Source: the human T2T-CHM13v2.0 reference genome, Homo sapiens
NCBI RefSeq assembly: GCF_009914755.1
Contig: NC_060934.1
Reading direction: 5' to 3' (one strand)
Length of the DNA stretch: 64,000 nt
Of the stretch, positions 35,179 to 50,785 are shown piece by piece. Each line of letters begins with the position of its first letter. The stretch's first letter is position 1. The position numbers and the translations under genes are program-made. The notes beneath the pieces were generated by a model that was given only the letters and a program-made list of their open reading frames with translations, was not told the DNA's origin and made no database searches.

Positions 35179-36553
35179 GGCCGGCTCTTCAGCACTGGGA
35201 GGTGGCTGTCCTGGGGGAGGGTCCCGTGCCGGGCAGCAGGGAGAAGTCGGGACTGAGGCCTGGTGGGCACGGAGATCCTGTGGGAGTGAGGAGGGCAGAG
35301 CCAAGCCAGGGCCGAGTTCCCAGAGGCAGGCCTTGGGCCTCGTCTTACCTGTGGTCCAGCCTCCTGGGCCGCTGGCGCTGGGTAGCCCGTGAGCCTCGTG
35401 AGCCTGGGAGGAGCGGTGGAGAACTCTCTGAGCCGGGAGTTCTGCTGCTGCCGAGCGAGCTCCACATTTATGCGCAGGGGAGACCTTGGCCGCCGCTGTC
35501 ACATGCAACCAGAGGGCTGCTCTGTGCCAAGGACCCCGTCGCACCCCCGCACCTGCCAGATTGGGGCACAAAGACCTGCTGTGAGAAGAGTGCTGAGCCA
35601 GGGCCCGCCGGGCGGGCGGGCGGCGAGGGCTGTGGGCCGGGGGCTGCTGGCCCGGGAGCTGGGATGGGGCCAGCCTGTCCCCCCGCCTCCTCCAACCCTT
35701 ATCTCCCCACGCGCTTCTGCTTGCGTCAGGGGCCCGGAAAGCACACGTGAGCAAGAATCGCTTGTCCAGGGAAGGGGCCGACTCTCCTTCCTGGGCCTGC
35801 CCAGCTCAGCAATAAGCAGCACCTTGGGCTGCACCCGCAGCCTCCTGGCTCACAGGGGCTCTCAGAACCCCCAGCCAGCGTGTCCAACACTGTCCTGGCC
35901 ACTGGGAACCAGACCCCACCCCCAGGGTAGGTGGCCCTGCTTGGCCTGGGGCGGCCTCCACAGCTGGGGCTCCCTGAGGATTCACGGCATCAGGCGGACA
36001 CTGGTCCAGTGAGGCCCAGAGCCTTCCCCGGGCCACAGAGCCCGCGAGCACGTGGAGAGGGGCCACGCTCTGCAGCCTTGGGGGCAAGAGTGCAGGGTCG
36101 GAGGGAGAGGGCCCCTCAGGGACAGCTGGCCAGACCCACAGCTGCCCACACAGAGCGAGACCACACAGGCAGGCAGACACCCTCTCCTAGGGCCAGGGAG
36201 CCCCCGGCCGAAGGGCCCAGGCAGGCAGCAGAACTCCTGCAGGTCTGGGGCTGTCCCTGTGTCCCAGGCTCAGGACACAAGGAAGAGGCCCAGAGGAGGC
36301 CAGGGCACAGGGCTTCCACAGGTGGCCAGGGACAGGGCTTCTGAACCCCAGCCAGCGGTCTCTCCCCAGGACGTAGGCAAGTGGAGGCTGGAGAAGGAAC
36401 AAGGCTGAGGCCTCAGAGGCCTCTTCAGTGACCATGTCCTCGGGGAGACTCAACGTCGCTAGGCAGGCCCGTGCGGGCGCCTGGCCCCAGCACCTGTGAT
36501 CTGTAGGGCCAGAGTCTCAGGACTGACCCGACGCAGCACCCACATGCGGCAGG

Positions 36554-38330
36554 GACACACAGAGACCCCCATAGACACACGTAGACACATACAGACTCAC
36601 ATAGACACACACAGAGACACACACAGACACACATAGACACACACAGAGACACAGACATGTAGACAGAGACACACTCAGACATGTAGACACACAGAGACAC
36701 AGATGTACACAGAGACACACACAGACACGCACACAATGGACCCACACACCCCCCAGGTGCAGCGGGCCTTGACTGTTGTACGCGAGAGTCTCCTGTCCCC
36801 TGAGTGGGGAGGGGCGTGGGGGGCATGAGGGGCCAGGTGGGGCTGCAAGACTGTCCAGCGCCCTCCTGATGGCCCCCGAGGCGGCCAGGAGCCCCGTCTG
36901 GGGAAGGACGAGTGGGCCCTGCTGGGCAGGAGGAGCCATAGGGACCATGGGGATGATGGACGATGGATGATGACCCAGCCACCTGCCAGGCCACTCTGCA
37001 GACCCCCCATGGGAGCAGCCTCTGCCCCCACCTTGTGCAAACCGTTGATCTGCACGCCAGGCCAAGCAGGTGATTGTCACTACCAGCGATGGCCACAGAG
37101 GGGTGGGGGGGAGCACATCAGTCGGTCACAAGCCCTCCTGGTGGGGACATGGGGCTGGGGACAGGCCCTGCTCAGGGCTGGTCCCCCACAACGAGGCCCA
37201 GAGTGGGCACGGGGGGCTGCTGGGCTCCATCCACCTGCTGGCAGGCTGAGGGTTGCCTTCTGGGGGAGGAGGGAACGTGGAGCTCAGACACACGCATGCT
37301 CACACTCAGGCTCATGCACACTCCTGCAGGCATGCTCACATCCACACACACGTGCATGCACAATTCACACACTCAGGCTCACCCACACTCACTCCTGCAG
37401 CACGCTCACATCCGCACACGCATGCACAATTCACACACTTATGCTTACCCTCACTCACACACGCCCATGGTCCCCCACCTCCATGAGGTCCGAGGATCCG
37501 AGGAAGAGTCCTTGGGGGGCTAGCAGGGGAGGGGCCCCACTCCTCCAGACACCTAGAACCTACACAGAGAGCCCCAGCATCACACTTCGGGGGCCTGGGC
37601 TCAAAAGGCCCCTGCAGAGCCCCCCATCCTGGGCCTCCGCCCAGCATCAGCCCTCCCCGTTTCTCCCCGTTGTTTCTCCCCGTTTCTCCCCGTTTACAGC
37701 TGCCCGGCGAGGCTTCTGGGAAACACATAATGCAAACCCTGACCTTGGGCTCCTGACCTCGGTTCTGCAAGAGGGAAGGAGGAGACAGGCAGAGGGCCAG
37801 AGAGACAGAGACAGAGAGACCAACAGACACAGAGAGAGACACACACAGAGTCAGAGAGAGAGAGAGAGGCAGACACAGAGAGAGACACAGACAGAGACAG
37901 AGAGAGAGAGATCAGCAGACACAGAGAGGGACACAGACATAGAGGGACAGAGACAGAGACAGTGGGGAAACAGAGACCAAGAGACAGAGACAGTGGGGAG
38001 ACAGAGAGAGAGACAGACACAGAGAGACAAAGAGAGAGAGACACGGACAGAGATAGAGAGACACAGTGGGGAGACAGAGACCGAGAGACAAAGACACAGA
38101 GACAAAGAGACAAACAAAGAGACAGAGACAGTGGGGAGACAGAGAGTAGGGAGATAGAGACAGAGACACAGAGACAGTGGGGAGACAGAGAGGCAGAGAC
38201 AGAGAGACACATACAGAGAGAAAGAGCAGGGAGACAGACAGACACACACAGAGAGACACATACAGAGAGACAGAGACAGCGGGGAAGCAGGGAGACAGAG
38301 ACAGAGAGACACACACAGAGAGACAGAGAC
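36554..38330. repeat. CA/GA-rich simple repeats (36554-36735, 37285-37460, and GAGACA-rich 37783-38330)
   Basis: Directly visible low complexity. Confidence 0.88.
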
Positions 38331-38926
38331 AGCAGGGAGGCTCTGGGCTATTCTAGGGCATCGCCCAGTCCCTCACTTGGTTTCCCTAACTTTTTTCTGG
38401 ATTATAAACCCACACCTGCTAATCAGGAAGACTTTCATCATCCACACGGGTTTAAAGGGGCTTCCAGGGACCGGAGGGTCGGGCTGCGCACAGGTGTGGG
38501 GACGGCCACCCTCTGCTGCCTCTGCAGGTGGAGGAGCCCAGGGCCCGTCTTCCTGCTGGCCCCATCGGCTGGAGCCTGGGAGCTGGGGTGACAACTGGGT
38601 GGGGGCCCAGACCCCCCTCTGTTTCCCCCTAGGCCTCAAGGAGCCACAGAAGGCTGTGGGCCAGGCAGTGGGCAGAGGGTGGCCGTCCCCACACCTGTGC
38701 GCAGCCCGACCCTCCGGTCCCTGGAAGCCCCTTTAAACCCGTGTGGATGATGAAAGTCTTCCTGATCAGCAGGTGTGGGTTTATAATCCAGAAAAAAGTT
38801 AGGGAAACCAAGTGAGGGACTGGGCGATGCCCTAGAATAGCCCAGAGCCTCCCTGCTGTCTCTGTCTCTCTGTGTGTGTCTCTCTGTCTCTGTCTCCCTG
38901 CTTCCCCGCTGTCTCTGTCTCTCTGT
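38262..38926. repeat. Inverted repeat: 255-bp arms (38262-38516 / 38672-38926), 155-bp spacer, one mismatch
   Basis: Arms compared by eye. The mismatch is at 38421/38767. ORFs 38377+ and 38811- translate identically over the arm. Confidence 0.95.
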
Positions 38927-39914
38927 CTTGTGCTGTCTTGGGCTCGGGCTGCCGGGTGGAACTGGTCAGAGGGGCGGCAGCCGAGGGACCAGGTGTCAGT
39001 GTCGCCTGGCCATCCTGGCTACGAGCCCTGGAGGTCCTGAGACCCCTCAGGGGATTCTGTGAGGTGACAGGAGGGACTCAGAGCAAACCCCAGCCCCTGA
39101 GGGCCGAGGGACCACCCGCAGGTGGACCCCAGGCTTCCCGACAGGCACACCCCACACACCTGCCCCCGTCCCGAGCTCCCTGTGGCTCCCCAGTGCTTTG
39201 AATGAAACCCAGCCTGTGAGCAGGAGGACAGGGACCCACCTCACCCACTGGAGGCCGCACAGCCTGGCTCCCACCCATCCTGGGGACCTCCTGCCGGAGA
39301 TTTGCAGAGTAGGGGTGGAAGGGCCTGAAAGCAGAGGAGCCCCACCCGGGCATCCTTCCCACCATCCCGGGGCCTCCTGCTGCACCGCCAACCCCGAGAA
39401 GGCCTCAGCAGTCCAGCCAGCACCAGCCGGGGACTGTGTCCTGGTCCTTCCCCCATCAGCAGGGGTCAGGATGACCACCTGGGCAGGGGCCCTGCTGTGG
39501 GTCCAGACACTCCCTGGGTGCCTCAGACCCCAATAGCAGCCCCTCCACACCAAACACACCGGCCACCCTCCCTCCCTCCACCAGAAACAGAAAGGATCTC
39601 TGTGGGTCTGGCAGACGTGCTTGGCACGGAGCTGGCGGTGATAACGGGTGGCCTTCAGGCGGCTCCACTCCCTCCATTCCATTCCTTGTGGGGCCCGGTG
39701 GAGGCGGGTGGCGGGGGTGTCCCTGCAGCTGTCTCTGGCCAAAGGCAGCCCACTGTTAACCCTTGGTGGACTCTCCCTGCTGAAGTTCCCAAAGAGGGTG
39801 GCCTGCTCCTCCTGCATCGCATGTGGAGACCTCAGTCTACACTGGCCACACCCTGAGGCTGGGCCCAACCCTGCCCAGCAGCCCGTCCTGCCCCACACCT
39901 CATCTTGCCCTATC

Positions 39915-40190
39915 CCACCCTGCACCCCACCGTGCCCCGCTCTGCACCCCGGCCCGCCCTGCACCCCATCCCTCCCTGCACCCCAGCCCGCCCTGCACCC
40001 CGCCCCACCCTGCACCCCAGCCCACCCTGCACCCCGGCCCGCCCTGCACCCTATCCCTCCCTGCACCCCAGCTCTCCCTGCACCCCGTCCTGCCCTGCAC
40101 CCCGTCCTGCCCTGTACCCCATCCCTCTCTGCACCCTGTCCTGCCCTGCACCCTGTCCCACTCTGCTCCTGACCCTGCCCTGCAGCCCCC
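39915..40190. repeat. C-rich minisatellite (CCCTGCACCCC core)
   Basis: More than 10 degenerate units of about 18-20 bp. Confidence 0.85.
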
Positions 40191-40281
40191 ACCCCATAGG
40201 TCCAGTGTCCCGGGAGTCAGCACTTCCCTCAGGTTATGTGCTGGTCCCACCGACCCCTGAGTTGCAGGCCGGGCGATGTCA

Positions 40282-44695
<4,414 letters not shown>

Positions 44696-47600
44696 CAGAA
44701 GCTTTAAGAGATTTTTAAATTCATTTTTACTTTTTTTCTCCTTCATCTACCCAAGATTGTACTCCGTGAGGGGGTTTTTGAAGTAAATTTCATGACAGCA
44801 CATTATTCAGCAGTGAGTTTCGGACCATATGTTCCCATTTTTACAACTTTTGTGCACCCTAGGGTGTTTTCCCCTAGGAAATTGTTGTTATATTTCACAC
44901 ATGCAAAAATAAACGCCAGGTGATGTGAGGGGCACCCACACCCACCTTCCCGCTGAGAAATGCAGGCCGCCCCCAAGGGGAGCCCTCATCCTGCAGGTTT
45001 CCTCCCGAGTCCTGGAATTCTAAAATGCGCTCCTTGCACCTGGGACTCTTCCTGCCAGCTTCACTGGGGAAAGCTCCTCTCCACCTCCCCTGCTCCCTCC
45101 GGGCCTCTCACGGCTCCCCCCGCCCCTCCTCTGCCCCAGGGCCTGTGCTCCTACATCCCGGCAAGCCGCAGCCCCGACACTTCCTCCTAATTTCCTGACA
45201 CTCCCCACTCCCTGGCGGGACGTTTTACTCCTTGCTCTCCTTCCCACTGGAGGGCGCGCGCTTTCTAGCTGGCCGCGTGGGCAGGCAGAGGACCAGGTGC
45301 AGGCGGGCGCCAGAGGACAGAAGGTGGAAGTCAAGCGGTGTCTTGGCCGTCCAAGGTCCCAGCACAGGCACTCAGAACCCCTGAGCCCAGGGAGCTCCCA
45401 AGGGTCTCACTCTCCTCTGCGGTCTTTGCTGGCCGAGGGCAAGGCCGGGTGAGGACGGAGAGAAGCAGCTCCTCCCCACCACACACCCAGAGCTGGGAGG
45501 GGCCAGGATTCAGCACCCTCTAGGGGTGGGCACGGCAGACGCGGTGGGGACCTGGCGCTGAGGTCCTGGCTCCCACTCCAGCGTGGCCTGGTGGCTTCTC
45601 CCCGGTTGGGGTACCCTGCACAGGGGTTGTGGTGCCTCCCAAGGGCCAGCCCCGCCCTGACAACCTCTCCTCCAGCCAGGATGGGGTCCATACTCCATCG
45701 AGAGGGTTCCTGGCTTCAACACCCTCCACCAGCCTCATGCCACCAGGGCCCTGGTCATCCTGGGGACCCTGCAGAGGGCCTCCTGGGCCTGTCTTCCGGC
45801 GGGTGAGCCGGCCCTGCCTGTGGGTGTCTGGGGTGTGGCCTCCAGGCACCAAGCACCCGCTGGCTCCTGATACCTGCCTTTCTGGCTGTGGTGTGTCTCT
45901 GGCCTGGCGCCTGTTTCTGAGTCCCTGGAGAGAGCAGGTTCCTCGCAGGTGGCAGGCAGCCCTGTTTGTGTGTGCATGAGCCTGTGGGGGCACCTGGAGC
46001 TGAGCGGTGGCCTGTGCTGTCACCACCCGGGGTGGCAGGGCAGGGTCTGGCACTGCCACAGCTCCTGACAGAAGCTGCCTAGGCCTGGGTTGGCTCGGGC
46101 TTCTCGGCCAGGCCCTTCCCCAGCACTTCCTGCCCAGCCCCAGCTGCAGGACCTGCTGAAATCTGTGCTGTGGGAGCCCTGTCTCTGAGGGGTCACTGCA
46201 GTGACTCCAGAAAACCTGAGTCTCCTGATTCCAGGAGCACCGCTTGCAGCCTGCCACGTGCATGACCCAGCATGACCCGGACTCCTGAGCCAGGACCGAG
46301 TCCCCCTGACAGCGGGGAAGCGGCGGACCCTGGGGGCTGGCACCCGCCGTGGCCCTCCCCAGCCCACTGTGGCACTGAGGGGCTGCTCCCCTGGGAATGG
46401 CCCCTTCCTAGAGGCAGCCCTGGCCTGGCTTCGAGAGGGGCTCTGGGAACAGGCGGCCCCGGGTAGCTGACCACACCTGACCAGGCCAGTCTTTGGGAAG
46501 CCGCCCTCTCAGCCTATGCACTGCAGGGACACTGGGTGGAGAGGGCTGTGCCTCAGTGCCCCTGCAGGGCGGTGCAGCAGCTGGCCGTGCAGGGGGAGGG
46601 GGCCTTGCCTTCTGGCTCAGGGAGGAAGCGGCTGCTCTCAGCTGCCTTCGCCTCGCCTCCTGAGGCGGCTTTGGAACCCTCCTGAGGTTTGTGGCCCTGA
46701 AGTTCCTTCCTGAGACCCCGCAGGGGACTAAGCCCTCGGCCCAGGGGCACCGGGGAGGGCAGAACCTCAAGACAGGGGCCCGGGACACAGGACAGAGTGT
46801 GTGGGGCAGGTGTGCAGGCTGTGCCCAAGGGGCCTCGGGGTTGAAGGGGCTCTTGGAGATGATGTCGACATCGCGGTTCCTGAGCGGGTGCCCAGATCTG
46901 GATGAGCTGTTTTCTGGAGAAAGCAGGAAAGTGACGTCATTTTGTGGCTTCAGATTGACCGCAGCCTGGCAGAGAGGGAGTGGTGGCAGGAAGTGAGGCT
47001 GCTGGCTTCCCAGTCACGGCCTCCATGATCCACGTGTGGCAGCATGAATCACAGCTGCATCATGACACCCAGAGGGAAAGCAGCTCAAGCTGCAGTTTAA
47101 GGCGACTCCACGGAGGGCCCTGGCTTAGTTGTTGCACAGCATGGGGTCAGATGGATGCCCTGGAAGAGTCAGCAGAGACCCCCTGGCCTTTGGAGTTTGT
47201 CTCTGAGCGAGAGACACTGTTGGGATGACCGGCGAGTGGCGTTGGGTCCACATGGGGGCCCTGGTCCGGCTGAGTCTACTGAGCACAGGCCTGCCCCTTG
47301 CCACCCAGCTCTGCCCATATGTGGCCGTCATTCCTGGGCTTCACCTGGGAAACGTCCTTTGAGGCAGCTCAGCTTTTCCACAGTGGGTCACGTTGTTTGC
47401 TGCTGGAGACTGGCTGAGTCTGTGCTTCCAGTATAGGAAGGTTTAGGAGGCAGTCAGCAGGCCTCTCCTGTGGCCACTGTGCCCGAGGCAGGTGCCTGGG
47501 GTGAGAGGGATTCTTCCGGATGTGGCCGTGCACTGCCCAGCAGGCCTGGAGTGAACGTCTGTGTGGAGTCCGGGCTCCCATCCAGCATCCCTTAAGGGTC

Positions 47601-47744
47601 CTGATGGCTGGAGCTGGGGGAGGCAGGTATGGCAAGGGGCTTCCTGCACGCAGGAAAACTGGAGACCCCTGGTGAAAGAGCCAGGTGTGCACCTGCAGAG
47701 CCAGGCATGGGTCCACAGAGCCTGTCAAGCCTGGTTTACACCAC

Positions 47745-48297
47745 AGAGCTGGGTATGCGCTGAGAACCAGGTGTGCACGGAGAGCCAGGTGTACACTGCA
47801 GAGCCGCGTGTGCACTGAGAGCAGGTGTGCGCTGAGAACCAGGTGTGCAGAGAGAGCCAGGTGTGCACGGAGAATCAGGTCTGCAGAGAGAGCCAGGTGT
47901 GCACTGAGAACCAGGTGTGCACGGAGAATCAGGTCTGCAGAGAGAGCCAGGTGTGCACTGAGAACCAAGTGTGCAGAGTCAGGTGTGCGCTGCAGAGCCG
48001 GGTGTGCACTGAGAACCAGCTGTGCAGAGAGAGTCAGGTGTGCGCTGCAGAGCCGGGTGTGCACTGAGAACCAGGTGTGCAGAGAGAGTCAGGTGTGCGC
48101 TGCAGAGCCGGGTGTGCACTGAGAACCAGGTGTGCAGAGAGAGTCAGGTGTGCGCTGCAGAGCCGGGTGTGCACTGAGTCAGGTGTGCAGAGAGTCAGGT
48201 GTACACTGCAGAGCCGCGTGTGCACTGAGAGCAGGTGTGCATGGAGAGCCAGGTGTCTGTTGAGAACCAGGTGTGTGCAGAGAGCCAGGTGTGCACT
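47745..48297. repeat. Minisatellite of about 18-bp subunits (GAGAACCAGGTGTGCA) with a 55-bp higher-order unit
   Basis: Directly visible. It produces the TENQVC/RESQVC artefact ORFs. Confidence 0.9.
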
Positions 48298-48613
48298 GCA
48301 TATCTAAGTGCTCATGTGGAGTCTTGGGCTGGGCAGGTGCTGCCCAGGACCCTGGCTCTCTGGCTGTCTTCTGTGCATTTGGGGATGGGAGAAGGGGCTC
48401 GGCTCTGGCTGGAGGGCAGCCAGGCAGACTTGCCAGCCAGCACCGCCAGGTGATAAGAGCTGGTGCCCACAGGTACTCAGCAAATGTCTGCATTTTGGGG
48501 AGGGCTGGAGAAAATGAAGGCCATGCCCTCTCTGCAAGGCTCCGCACAGGCCCTGTTTCCCAGTCCTTCAGCCACAGGGTGTCCCGGCAACAAGGGTGCC
48601 AGGTCGCCTGCAC

Positions 48614-49551
48614 CCTGACTGTCTCCTGCGGAAAGGACAGCGCCTGCTCCTTGTCCTCCAGTAGCTGCTGGACTCCGGGGTCTGGGTGCTCTGGCGCCCG
48701 GCGGCTGGGTCCCCACTACAAGGTAGACACCAGCCTTGAATCCAACTGTCGAGGAAATGGGGTGGGCGGCGGAGGCTGGGGAGATCGGGAGGAAGGGAGG
48801 TATGGGCGGTTGGAGGGCTTGAGAGACAGGAACCCACCCTCTGCAAGTGCAGTGGCCTGTCCCCTCCAGAACGCTCTCATTCTTCGTGCTGAAGGGAGCT
48901 GGGGGCGTGGCAGGCCTGCGAGACGAATGGGCGCTATCAGCTCAGGGCTCTGCCTCGGAGGAGCCACCCGGAGGCAGCACCCATGGGTGTGGGGGCTTGG
49001 CCACAGGGGACGTCAGGCCTCCTCGGTGCAGCACCAGATGCGTCTAACAGCCTCCGCCCCGTGGGCGCCCACTCAGACTTGCTGCTCAGGTGCCTAGAGC
49101 AGAAGCCACCTCCTCAGAGGCCAGCGCGCCAGCCTGGCACCACGGGGACGCTCCCAGGGGGTGCCCAGAGGGAACGTGCGCATCGGGCGGGGTACTGCGG
49201 CGCGTGTGGGCCGTGAGCCCCGCCCTGTAGTCGGACACTGGAGTCCCGGATCCTACAGATCTGAAAGGCTGAGTCGGATGCAGCAAAGGCGAAGCGGGGT
49301 TCGCAGCCCCAGACTCTTGGGGGGGGGGGGGGGTCAGCGAGCAACCGGGAGGGGCGCCGCGGGCCATTCGCCGCTTCTCCTGGGCCGAGGGCGCAGGCCC
49401 CTGCCGCGGGGGCCCCTCGGACTCCACGACTTCGCGGACGCGCGCCCACCGCCATAGCTGAGGTCCCGGGCCAGGCGGCGCGTGGGTGGCTGAGCGGGAG
49501 CGCGTCCAGCCAGGCGTGGAGGCCGCGCGGGGCCGGGGTCGAGCCCAGCAT
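48614..49551 (-). pseudogene. Decayed SPEF1-like (sperm flagellar 1-like, CH domain plus coiled coil) unprocessed pseudogene
   Basis: Exon 1 49551-49450: MLGSTPAPRGLHAWLDALPLSH(P)-frameshift-TRRLARDLSYG|GT, compared with SPEF1 LYLWVDNIPLSRPKRNLSRDFSDG. Exon 48745-48614: ..TAG..DPGVQQLLEDKEQALSFPQETVR|GT, compared with SPEF1 AEKEQELLASQETVQ. SPEF1 sequence is from memory. Confidence 0.8.
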
Positions 49552-49900
49552 GGCGGGGGGGGTGCGGGGCAGTGGCCCGGACAAGGGCATGGGGCCGGAA
49601 GAGGCGGGGCCGTTGCCGGGAGACGAGACGGAATGGGCGGGGCGCGGGCGGGGCCGTTGCCGGGAGACGAGACGGAATGGGCGGGGCGCGGGCGGGGCCG
49701 TTGCCGGGAGACGAGACGGAATGGGCGGGGCGCGGGCGGGGCCGTTGCCGGGAGACGGGGCGGGGGCGGGGCCGGGCCATTGCCCGGAGACGGGGCGGGG
49801 CGGGGGTAGCGCGGGCTCCTCCGTGCATCGCGGCGAAGTCTTCTTGGGCGTGGGTTCCTGGATCGGATCGTCTGCCCGCGGGAGGGGCGGGACTGCTTAG
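49130..49900 (-). promoter_or_regulatory. CpG island with a 44-bp tandem repeat carrying X-box-like GTTGCCGGGAGAC and GC boxes
   Basis: GTTGCCGGGAGAC at 49612, 49656, 49700, 49744, with a degenerate copy at 49779. GGGCGGGG lies between them. Confidence 0.75.
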
Positions 49901-50064
49901 TTACGCTGGGGAGGGCCTGAGAAATCCAGGGAGAAAAGAAGGTGGCTTGACCTCATCTATTCGCAGTCTGCATTTTACCAAGCGCCGACCCTTGTATCTC
50001 GTGAACTGAAGCCCTCCATCCTTCCCCGCTGATCTAACAAGAATCTACAGAACTCGGTCAATAA

Positions 50065-50070
50065 TTTATT
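50065..50070 (-). terminator. ADAM8 poly(A) signal AATAAA
   Basis: TTTATT on the plus strand, about 715 nt past the stop, in the only AT-rich patch nearby. Confidence 0.85.
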
Positions 50071-50785
50071 AGTAAAATATACATTTCTCATTATTAAAGA
50101 ATAAAAGCTTTCAGCCCTGCTGAACACACATCTGAGGTCTCAAGAAAACCAGACAAGATAGCTGACTCTCCCACATAGCCCTTTCCATAAAGGCGATTCC
50201 TAAGCTTAAACACACACAAAGCTGGGGCTGTCCCTCTTGAATCCCATGGGAAACAGGCCCCAAGATCAGGGGACCTGGAGTCGGGAGCTTGGGGTGCAGT
50301 CTGCTCACTGACACCCTCTCGAAGAGCACGCAGGGGAACCTGGTCCTGGGATGGAGTCTTTCTGGGGATGCCCCACGTCTGTGCTGCCTGGAACCGGGTG
50401 CCCAGGGCAGCCGGCTCAGCAGGCCCCAGAGCAGGGGCAGGTGTGGCTGGGAGGGGCTGTATATGTGGCCTCCTGAACACAGCGGGAGACCAGCGGCCAC
50501 CTGGAGACACGTACACACACACGCACCCGCAAGCACACAGCTCATCCCAGCCTGGTGCCTGCAGACAGCTGGGGCTACACGTGGCCAAGGCGGGGAGAAG
50601 GAATTGGCTGAGGGCGTGGACAGCAGGAGCCTCTCAGGTAGATGCATTACTGAGGTTAGAACAGCAGCTGAGCCTGCAAAGTCAGGGTCTAGGGCTGAGC
50701 GGCACTAGCTGGACCGTGGAACGCTGGAACGCATGGCTTCTCTGCCGCAACTTCTCCAAATTTCCACACAGGCGCAGGTGCCCCC

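What the first reader, a model, noticed from the sequence alone, without database searches (positions are those of the whole stretch)
49603..49800. Promoter of the dead gene is a tandem array of RFX X-box-like plus GC-box units
Seen: a 44-bp unit places GTTGCCGGGAGAC four times (49612, 49656, 49700, 49744; degenerate at 49779) 60-240 bp upstream of the SPEF1-like ATG, in an uneroded CpG island. Knowledge: GTTGCC-N-GGAGAC resembles the X-box bound by RFX2/3, the regulators of ciliary and flagellar genes. This independently supports the SPEF1-like call. Inference: the promoter has outlived its ORF and recently amplified, since the units are identical. It may drive a non-coding RNA or act as a copy-number-variable enhancer for ADAM8 or MIR202.
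Basis: partly seen in the sequence, partly recalled or inferred. Interest (0 to 1): 0.7.

Follow-up and report, generated by a model that had tools for sequence, protein, structure and literature searches.

The report
Repeated cilia switch outliving dead gene
A short DNA repeat has copied a match to the cilia-gene (RFX) control motif four times in front of a broken human gene that many other mammals keep intact; the motif likely still binds its factor, but the extra copies are likely an ordinary by-product of repeat instability, with no function shown.

Summary
Observation confirmed: 3.5 identical 44-bp units (49603-49757) put GTTGCCGGGAGAC at 49612/49656/49700/49744, with a variant at 49779, 61-228 bp upstream of a minus-strand ATG (49551) in a CpG island (o/e 0.96; 0.88 with the array collapsed). 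The gene is not a SPEF1 copy but the remnant of its paralogue SPEF1L: exon 1 is frameshifted, exon 6 survives, and exons 2, 3 and 7 are undetectable. The 13-mer fits a published restricted X-box consensus (chance 0.002 in the collapsed promoter). The syntenic mouse gene 6430531B16Rik has RFX1/2/3 peaks at -36/-54/+10 and falls in Rfx2 and Rfx3 knockouts, so an ancestral RFX promoter is well supported. The functional extras are not. Identical units bound the age only to about 10-40 My. The window holds 15 comparable tandem arrays. No RefSeq transcript starts here, RefSeq marks a silencer, and Adam8 and Mir202 are absent from the mouse knockout tables. A live FAM183-family promoter carries a similar X-box repeat. 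Verdict: a relic RFX/GC-box promoter whose module was duplicated, probably neutrally; a new member of known kinds. Human binding, transcription and polymorphism are untested.

The parts
49603..49757 (.). 44-bp minisatellite, 3.5 identical copies; each unit holds one X-box-type 13-mer, two GGGCGG boxes and a G4 motif
49612..49624 (+). X-box-type 13-mer, copy 1 (61 bp from the ATG)
49656..49668 (+). X-box-type 13-mer, copy 2
49700..49712 (+). X-box-type 13-mer, copy 3
49744..49756 (+). X-box-type 13-mer, copy 4
49779..49791 (+). fifth, diverged X-box; fits only the loose consensus RYYNYY N1-3 RRNRAC
49723..49792 (.). older 35-bp duplication of the same X-box + GC-box module (6 differences in 35 bases)
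48951..50200 (.). CpG island covering exon 1, the array and the ADAM8 3' end
49450..49551 (-). SPEF1L pseudo-exon 1: ATG at 49551, frameshift near 49482, GT donor at 49449-49448 in the same place as SPEF1 intron 1; a second in-frame ATG lies at 49590
48614..48715 (-). SPEF1L pseudo-exon 6 (start of the C-terminal coiled coil), AG/GT flanked
48838..48915 (-). possible pseudo-exon 5, AG/GT flanked; tentative
   Evidence: tblastn E 0.007 with P0030; the middle segment scores at background
49305..49638 (.). RefSeq 'silencer' element overlapping exon 1 and the first unit; assay and cell type not given
   Evidence: hub annotation table

Best explanation
This is a GC-rich minisatellite made of 3.5 identical copies of an X-box-plus-GC-box module, lying in the CpG-island promoter of the broken SPEF1L gene; the sites likely still bind RFX and SP/KLF factors, which likely keeps the island unmethylated, and the extra copies likely arose by neutral repeat instability. 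Shown: the array, the motif fit, the island, the SPEF1L remnant (exon 1 frameshifted, exon 6 kept, exons 2, 3 and 7 undetectable), and RFX1/2/3 binding and RFX2/3 dependence at the syntenic mouse promoter. Inferred: (1) the module is the ancestral ciliary/germ-line promoter, first doubled as a 35-bp unit and later expanded as a 44-bp unit by slippage or unequal exchange, helped by G-tracts and the subtelomeric setting; (2) RFX and SP binding protect the island from germ-line methylation, so its CpGs persist without selection on any product; (3) any remaining output is weak non-coding transcription in ciliated or germ cells and reporter repression elsewhere, without a selected role.
For: SPEF1L identity: exon 1 retrieves 'sperm flagellar protein 1-like' (P0003, 77% over 73% of a 40-aa query, E 0.015). 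With four mammalian SPEF1L proteins, exon 1 scores 67-101 (background max 49-63) and exon 6 scores 76-83 (max 42-49; SPEF1 locus only 32-43), while exons 2, 3 and 7 stay at background over 35500-50050 although the control loci score 61-128. The exon-6 core is 18/23 identical to the best SPEF1L and 10/23 to SPEF1. Synteny: one mouse peak is +8408 from Utf1 and +26558 from 6430531B16Rik, so the two genes converge with TSSs 35.0 kb apart; human UTF1 to the ATG is 31.8 kb, convergent. Mouse promoter peaks: RFX1 -36, RFX2 -54, RFX3 +10; log2FC -1.12 in Rfx3-/- and -0.77 in Rfx2-/- ependymal cells (PMC7498320 supplement); RFX2 ChIP-positive in testis (PMC4498915 Table S1). Genome-wide the 13-mer sits in CpG-island context in 7 of 15 independent places other than this one, against 0 of 9 for the reversed control (Fisher p 0.022). 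The paralogue SPATA4 has a strict X-box next to GC boxes just before its ATG. Mutating SP1, CTCF or RFX motifs raises methylation of the Gtf2a1l island (PMC8286816 passage). The window holds 15 arrays of period 14 or more, 3 or more copies and 80% or more identity, one other 100% identical.
Against: No human ChIP, ATAC, CAGE or methylation data were seen. That 6430531B16Rik is Spef1l is recalled; the tools gave synteny only, and no mouse protein was among the 77 hits. The 13-mer fails the strictest consensus, and human SPEF1 has no restricted-consensus match within the 600 bp scanned. In testis the mouse gene is bound but not differentially expressed in Rfx2-/-. The amplified unit is exactly the factor-binding module, and X-box tandem repeats are rare (2 of 10 loci with paired X-boxes), which selection would also explain. 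The single-strand DNA fold is no stronger than shuffles (z 1.35; G4 not modelled), so hairpin-driven instability is not supported.
Confidence: 0.68

Rival explanations
1. Exapted activator: the amplified X-boxes drive a non-coding RNA from the dead gene, or act as an RFX-dependent enhancer of ADAM8 (TSS 14.7 kb away) or MIR202HG (TSS 14.2 kb away), with strength set by unit number.
For: The island is intact while most coding exons are gone. The amplified unit is the binding module. A live FAM183-family promoter has 3 X-boxes in a 24-bp tandem repeat. Orphan CpG islands can act as enhancers (PMC8286816 passages).
Against: No RefSeq transcript, and a silencer rather than an enhancer is listed (hub table). 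Adam8, Mir202 and Gm2044: 0 occurrences in the searched supplements of both mouse Rfx studies (one file was cut when stored, and these genes may not be expressed or measurable there). Polymorphism is not shown.
Confidence: 0.14
2. Silencer or boundary: ubiquitous RFX1 on the array represses or insulates at the ADAM8 3' end (238 bp away), limiting read-through or antisense transcription.
For: RefSeq silencer 49305-49638 covers the first unit (hub table). RFX1 represses MAP1A through two X-boxes in non-neuronal cells (PMC3245922 passage). RFX1 binds the mouse promoter.
Against: The silencer interval covers only one X-box and mostly exon 1/intron 1; its assay is unknown; reporter repression by GC-rich promoters is common (own knowledge).
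Confidence: 0.1
3. Chance: a subtelomeric GC-rich repeat whose 13-mer is not bound by RFX in humans; the island persists through GC-biased conversion or ADAM8-related constraint.
For: The loose consensus matches 100 times in the window; a near-identical 13-mer lies at 48579 away from any promoter; the strict consensus is not met. PMC2375033 notes that a single-species X-box is not predictive.
Against: Restricted-consensus chance 0.002; position 61-228 bp from the ATG; RFX1/2/3 peaks within 54 bp of the syntenic mouse TSS; flanks have CpG o/e 0.29-0.35, so the island is local. The 48579 site fails even the loose consensus.
Confidence: 0.08

Closest known systems
RFX X-box promoters of motile-cilia genes (mouse 6430531B16Rik, recalled as Spef1l; PMC7498320, PMC4498915)
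   Same: X-box close to the start inside a GC-rich promoter; syntenic position and orientation; SPEF1-family gene
   Different: The human gene is broken, and the module is present as 4 identical copies plus 1 diverged one; the mouse promoter sequence was not seen
X-box tandem repeat at a human FAM183-family promoter (L042, chr1:43.018 Mb; CFAP144/FAM183A by recall)
   Same: Three 13-bp X-boxes of the same half-sites in a tandem repeat 42-107 bp before the ATG
   Different: 24-bp period, 88% identity, no GC box in the unit, gene with an open first exon
Unitary pseudogenes with retained CpG islands; orphan CpG islands (PMC2864566, PMC8286816)
   Same: No working copy of the gene found in the genome; the island persists without an annotated transcript
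   Different: Not named in the four gene-loss papers checked; the island holds a motif-bearing minisatellite
GC-rich promoter VNTRs that affect expression (eVNTRs; PMC8024321, PMC8275641)
   Same: GC-rich tandem unit carrying factor motifs in a CpG island
   Different: Length polymorphism and expression effect are not shown; the locus was not found in either supplement search

Membership tests
RFX X-box | Fits a published X-box consensus | tested here: met
   Matches GYTRYY N1-3 RRHRAC and RYYNYY N1-3 RRNRAC without mismatch
RFX X-box | Fits the strictest consensus RTNRCC N1-3 RGYAAC | tested here: not met
   0 matches in the window; one mismatch on the minus strand to a similar recalled consensus
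RFX X-box | Close to the start of a ciliary gene | tested here: met
   61-228 bp from the SPEF1L ATG; the human TSS is unknown
RFX X-box | RFX bound at the orthologous promoter, gene RFX-dependent | tested here: met
   Mouse supplements; orthology by synteny, gene renaming recalled
RFX X-box | RFX occupancy of the human site | not testable with these tools
   No human ChIP data on hand
RFX X-box | Motif conserved in aligned orthologous DNA | not testable with these tools
   No related genomes held
SPEF1L unitary pseudogene | Closer to SPEF1L than to SPEF1 | tested here: met
   Exon 6 scores 76-83 against 32-43 for the SPEF1 locus; 18/23 against 10/23 identity
SPEF1L unitary pseudogene | Disabled ORF at the syntenic, intron-bearing locus | tested here: met
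   Frameshift in exon 1, donor kept, exons 2, 3, 7 at background
SPEF1L unitary pseudogene | No working copy elsewhere in the genome | tested here: inconclusive
   Own-genome searches found only SPEF1, two other CH_2 loci and a frameshifted spliced copy on chr4; these searches score only the best candidates and missed the window locus itself
Minisatellite / VNTR | Head-to-tail units of 10-60 bp | tested here: met
   44 bp x 3.5
Minisatellite / VNTR | Variable number among people | tested here: inconclusive
   One haplotype only; no row found in two catalogues' supplements, searched with estimated coordinates
Enhancer or eVNTR of ADAM8/MIR202 | Perturbation or genotype changes target expression | not testable with these tools
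   Only indirect negative evidence from mouse tables

The most novel reading that the evidence does not exclude
After SPEF1L died in primates, its RFX promoter was kept and strengthened into a five-site RFX/SP cluster that is length-polymorphic in people and now tunes a ciliated-cell or testis non-coding RNA, MIR202HG or ADAM8: a dead gene's promoter turned into a copy-number rheostat for its neighbours.
Probability: 0.12. Interest if true: 0.6.

Novelty: new member of a known kind. Interest (0 to 1): 0.3.

Why it matters
It marks an unannotated human gene loss: SPEF1L is annotated in bats, carnivores, rodents, tree shrew, afrotherians, a sloth and a marsupial, and its syntenic mouse counterpart is an RFX target in motile-ciliated cells. 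The relic promoter is a clean natural case for asking whether RFX and SP sites alone keep a CpG island after its gene is gone. If unit number varied and changed ADAM8 or MIR202HG, it would be a functional variant that short reads miss. Without that, it is one of many subtelomeric minisatellites that happened to capture a real motif.

Tried and rejected
Pfam scans of four window frames found nothing, and a PDB sequence search gave one chance hit. A word-index protein search with the exon-6 frame gave no hit. The representative-protein search gave only P0001, a wrong-frame gene model from similar DNA in another genome, with no SPEF1 similarity. A DNA-level 'exon 3' at 49197-49064 and by-eye readings of exons 2 and 7 were rejected once real SPEF1L proteins scored at background there. 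The array has no paralogue; the one other hit is a 71% GC-rich match on chr16. A hairpin role is rejected (z 1.35). The sigma-70 scan is irrelevant for human DNA and was empty. I considered reading a GRCh38-CHM13 copy-number difference from the 334-bp length of the RefSeq silencer and dropped it: a poly-G tract inside the interval explains it as well. Earlier findings and the protein atlas gave no data. Paper searches without a relevant hit: SPEF1L, 6430531B16Rik (9), ADAM8+VNTR (28), ADAM8+CpG island+methylation+MIR202HG (41), six-term RFX minisatellite search (42), SPEF1+paralog+pseudogene+SPATA4 (71).

Full report
Observation. The array is real: 49603-49757, period 44, 3.5 copies, 100% matches, with the three full units letter-identical. 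GTTGCCGGGAGAC lies at 49612, 49656, 49700 and 49744, and a variant at 49779. The last two sites belong to an older 35-bp duplication with 6 differences in 35 bases. Each full unit has two GGGCGG boxes and a four-tract G4 motif. The CpG island runs 48951-50200. Its o/e is 0.96 over 49130-49900 and 0.88 when the array is collapsed to one unit, against 0.29-0.35 in five flanking stretches, so the island does not depend on the repeat.

The gene. I assembled human SPEF1 from the genome. Its first exon aligns to 49534-49450 on the minus strand with a one-base gap and the intron donor in the same place; the frameshift-aware score is 61 against a background maximum of 42 in 100 shuffles. The window's exon-1 frame retrieved one protein among 35 candidates, a mole 'sperm flagellar protein 1-like', which led to 77 hits, nearly all mammalian SPEF1L models. 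With 4 of these as queries, exon 1 (ending 49451) and exon 6 (48715-48614) score well above 40 shuffles, while exons 2, 3 and 7 stay at background across 35500-50050; the SPEF1 locus (all three exons) and a chr4 copy (exons 2 and 3) serve as positive controls. The exon-6 core is 18 of 23 identical to the best SPEF1L and 10 of 23 to SPEF1. So this is the intron-bearing SPEF1L locus, frameshifted and lacking the core of its CH domain. None of the 77 hits is labelled as a primate and tree shrew is present, which suggests loss in primates. That list is incomplete: only 7985 candidates were scored, mouse and rat are missing too, and one hit is unnamed.

Is the motif an X-box? It matches the restricted consensus GYTRYY N1-3 RRHRAC of PMC2375033 (passages). 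The window has 10 such matches, 4 of them in the array, and the chance of at least one in the collapsed 217-bp promoter is 0.002; it is 0.16 under the loose consensus, and the strict consensus is not met. A C. elegans proximal X-box used in PMC3245922 has the same two half-sites (primer table passage). In the genome the 13-mer occurs 25 times against 9 for the reversed control. I collapsed 7 near-identical duplicated copies and the 4 array copies to one each, leaving 16 places. Eight of the 16 (7 of 15 without this one) are in CpG-island context, against 0 of 9 controls (p 0.022), and two of them lie next to other X-box-like sites.

Mouse evidence. In PMC7498320 (passages and supplement searches) 6430531B16Rik has promoter peaks of RFX1 (-36), RFX2 (-54) and RFX3 (+10) and falls by log2 1.12 in Rfx3-/- and 0.77 in Rfx2-/- ependymal cells. 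In PMC4498915 Table S1 it is RFX2-bound in testis, high-stringency in CilDB and not differentially expressed. One distal peak is +8408 from Utf1 and +26558 from this gene, which makes the two convergent and 35.0 kb apart; in human the figure is 31.8 kb, also convergent. Kndc1 is the row before it in two promoter tables. That the gene is now called Spef1l is my recall; PMC12222873 (one passage) only places Spef1l within about 1 Mb of Fuom.

How it likely works. The module is the ancestral RFX/GC-box promoter. Mutating SP1, CTCF or RFX motifs raises methylation of the Gtf2a1l island (PMC8286816 passage; SP1 also in PMC6923324), so continued binding would keep this island unmethylated and slow CpG loss with no selection on a product. 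This step is inference. The expansion fits the setting: 15 arrays of period 14 or more, 3 or more copies and 80% or more identity in 64 kb, one other perfect. Perfect identity over 154 bp bounds the age at 10-39 My for assumed rates of 2 to 0.5 x 1e-9 per site and year, so 'recent' need not mean human-specific or polymorphic.

Against neutrality. Paired X-boxes 15-45 bp apart are rare: 4 loci for the 13-bp pattern and 6 for the 14-bp pattern, with 1 and 0 control matches. Two of the 10 are tandem repeats, this one and L042; TRF was run on these two only, and the rest were judged from the matched text. L042 has three X-boxes in a 24-bp repeat before an open FAM183-family exon (Pfam E 1e-5, below the cut-off with one exon), and mouse Fam183b is an RFX target. 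So X-box multiplication also occurs at a live ciliary promoter, where it could be selected.

Against an enhancer or RNA role. The hub's RefSeq table shows no transcript and a silencer at 49305-49638. Adam8, Mir202 and Gm2044 have 0 occurrences in the searched supplements of both knockout studies; one file was cut when stored, and these genes may not be measurable in those tissues. Supplement searches of PMC8275641 (0 hits in 11 files) and PMC8024321 (one other ADAM8 repeat, not this one; one scanned file unread) found no row for the array. I used estimated GRCh38/hg19 coordinate prefixes, so this is no evidence that it is fixed.

Novelty. The locus was not named in the main text of PMC2864566, PMC7555810 or PMC2134963 (term searches; their supplements were not searched and could list it) or in the supplement of PMC10195156. 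Six paper searches gave no description of the human locus or the array (listings only). GENCODE and HGNC could not be checked. Every ingredient is of a known kind: unitary pseudogene, orphan CpG island, X-box promoter, GC-rich minisatellite. Verdict: new member of a known kind, interest 0.3; the exaptation reading has probability about 0.12 and would merit 0.6.

Noticed in passing
L055 about 1295-1715 (chr4:60,032,650-60,033,070, + strand): Spliced, frameshifted retrocopy of SPEF1L exons 1-3, holding the exons 2-3 that the parent locus has lost; CpG o/e 0.70 amid AT-rich flanks. It implies germ-line transcription of SPEF1L in an ancestor of humans.
   Followed up: partly
L042 1497-1561 (chr1:43.018 Mb): Three X-boxes in a 24-bp tandem repeat (88% identity) 42-107 bp before the ATG of a FAM183-family gene, CFAP144 by recall.
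   Followed up: partly
L010, L011, L012, L017, L018, L025, L027: The same 13-mer with GC boxes in seven near-identical CpG-island copies on chr3, 4, 8, 11 and 12, a duplicated promoter family.
   Followed up: no
L029 1466-1513 (chr16:713.9 kb): Three X-box-like sites packed within 50 bp, not a tandem repeat.
   Followed up: no
window 47745-48298: A 36/55-bp minisatellite just downstream of pseudo-exon 6; the similar unnamed model P0001 aligns with large gaps here, suggesting a shorter array in that genome.
   Followed up: partly
window 46790-46912, minus strand: By eye, an exon-like stretch with a polypyrimidine-AG start and a GT end that matches no SPEF1L segment.
   Followed up: no
mouse peak RFX1_1311 / RFX2_1094 / RFX3_2503, 8.4 kb past the Utf1 TSS: A second site bound by all three RFX factors lies between Utf1 and 6430531B16Rik; its human counterpart, somewhere between UTF1 and MIR202HG, was not sought.
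   Followed up: no
window 49320-49334: A 15-base poly-G run inside the island and the RefSeq silencer; likely length-variable.
   Followed up: no
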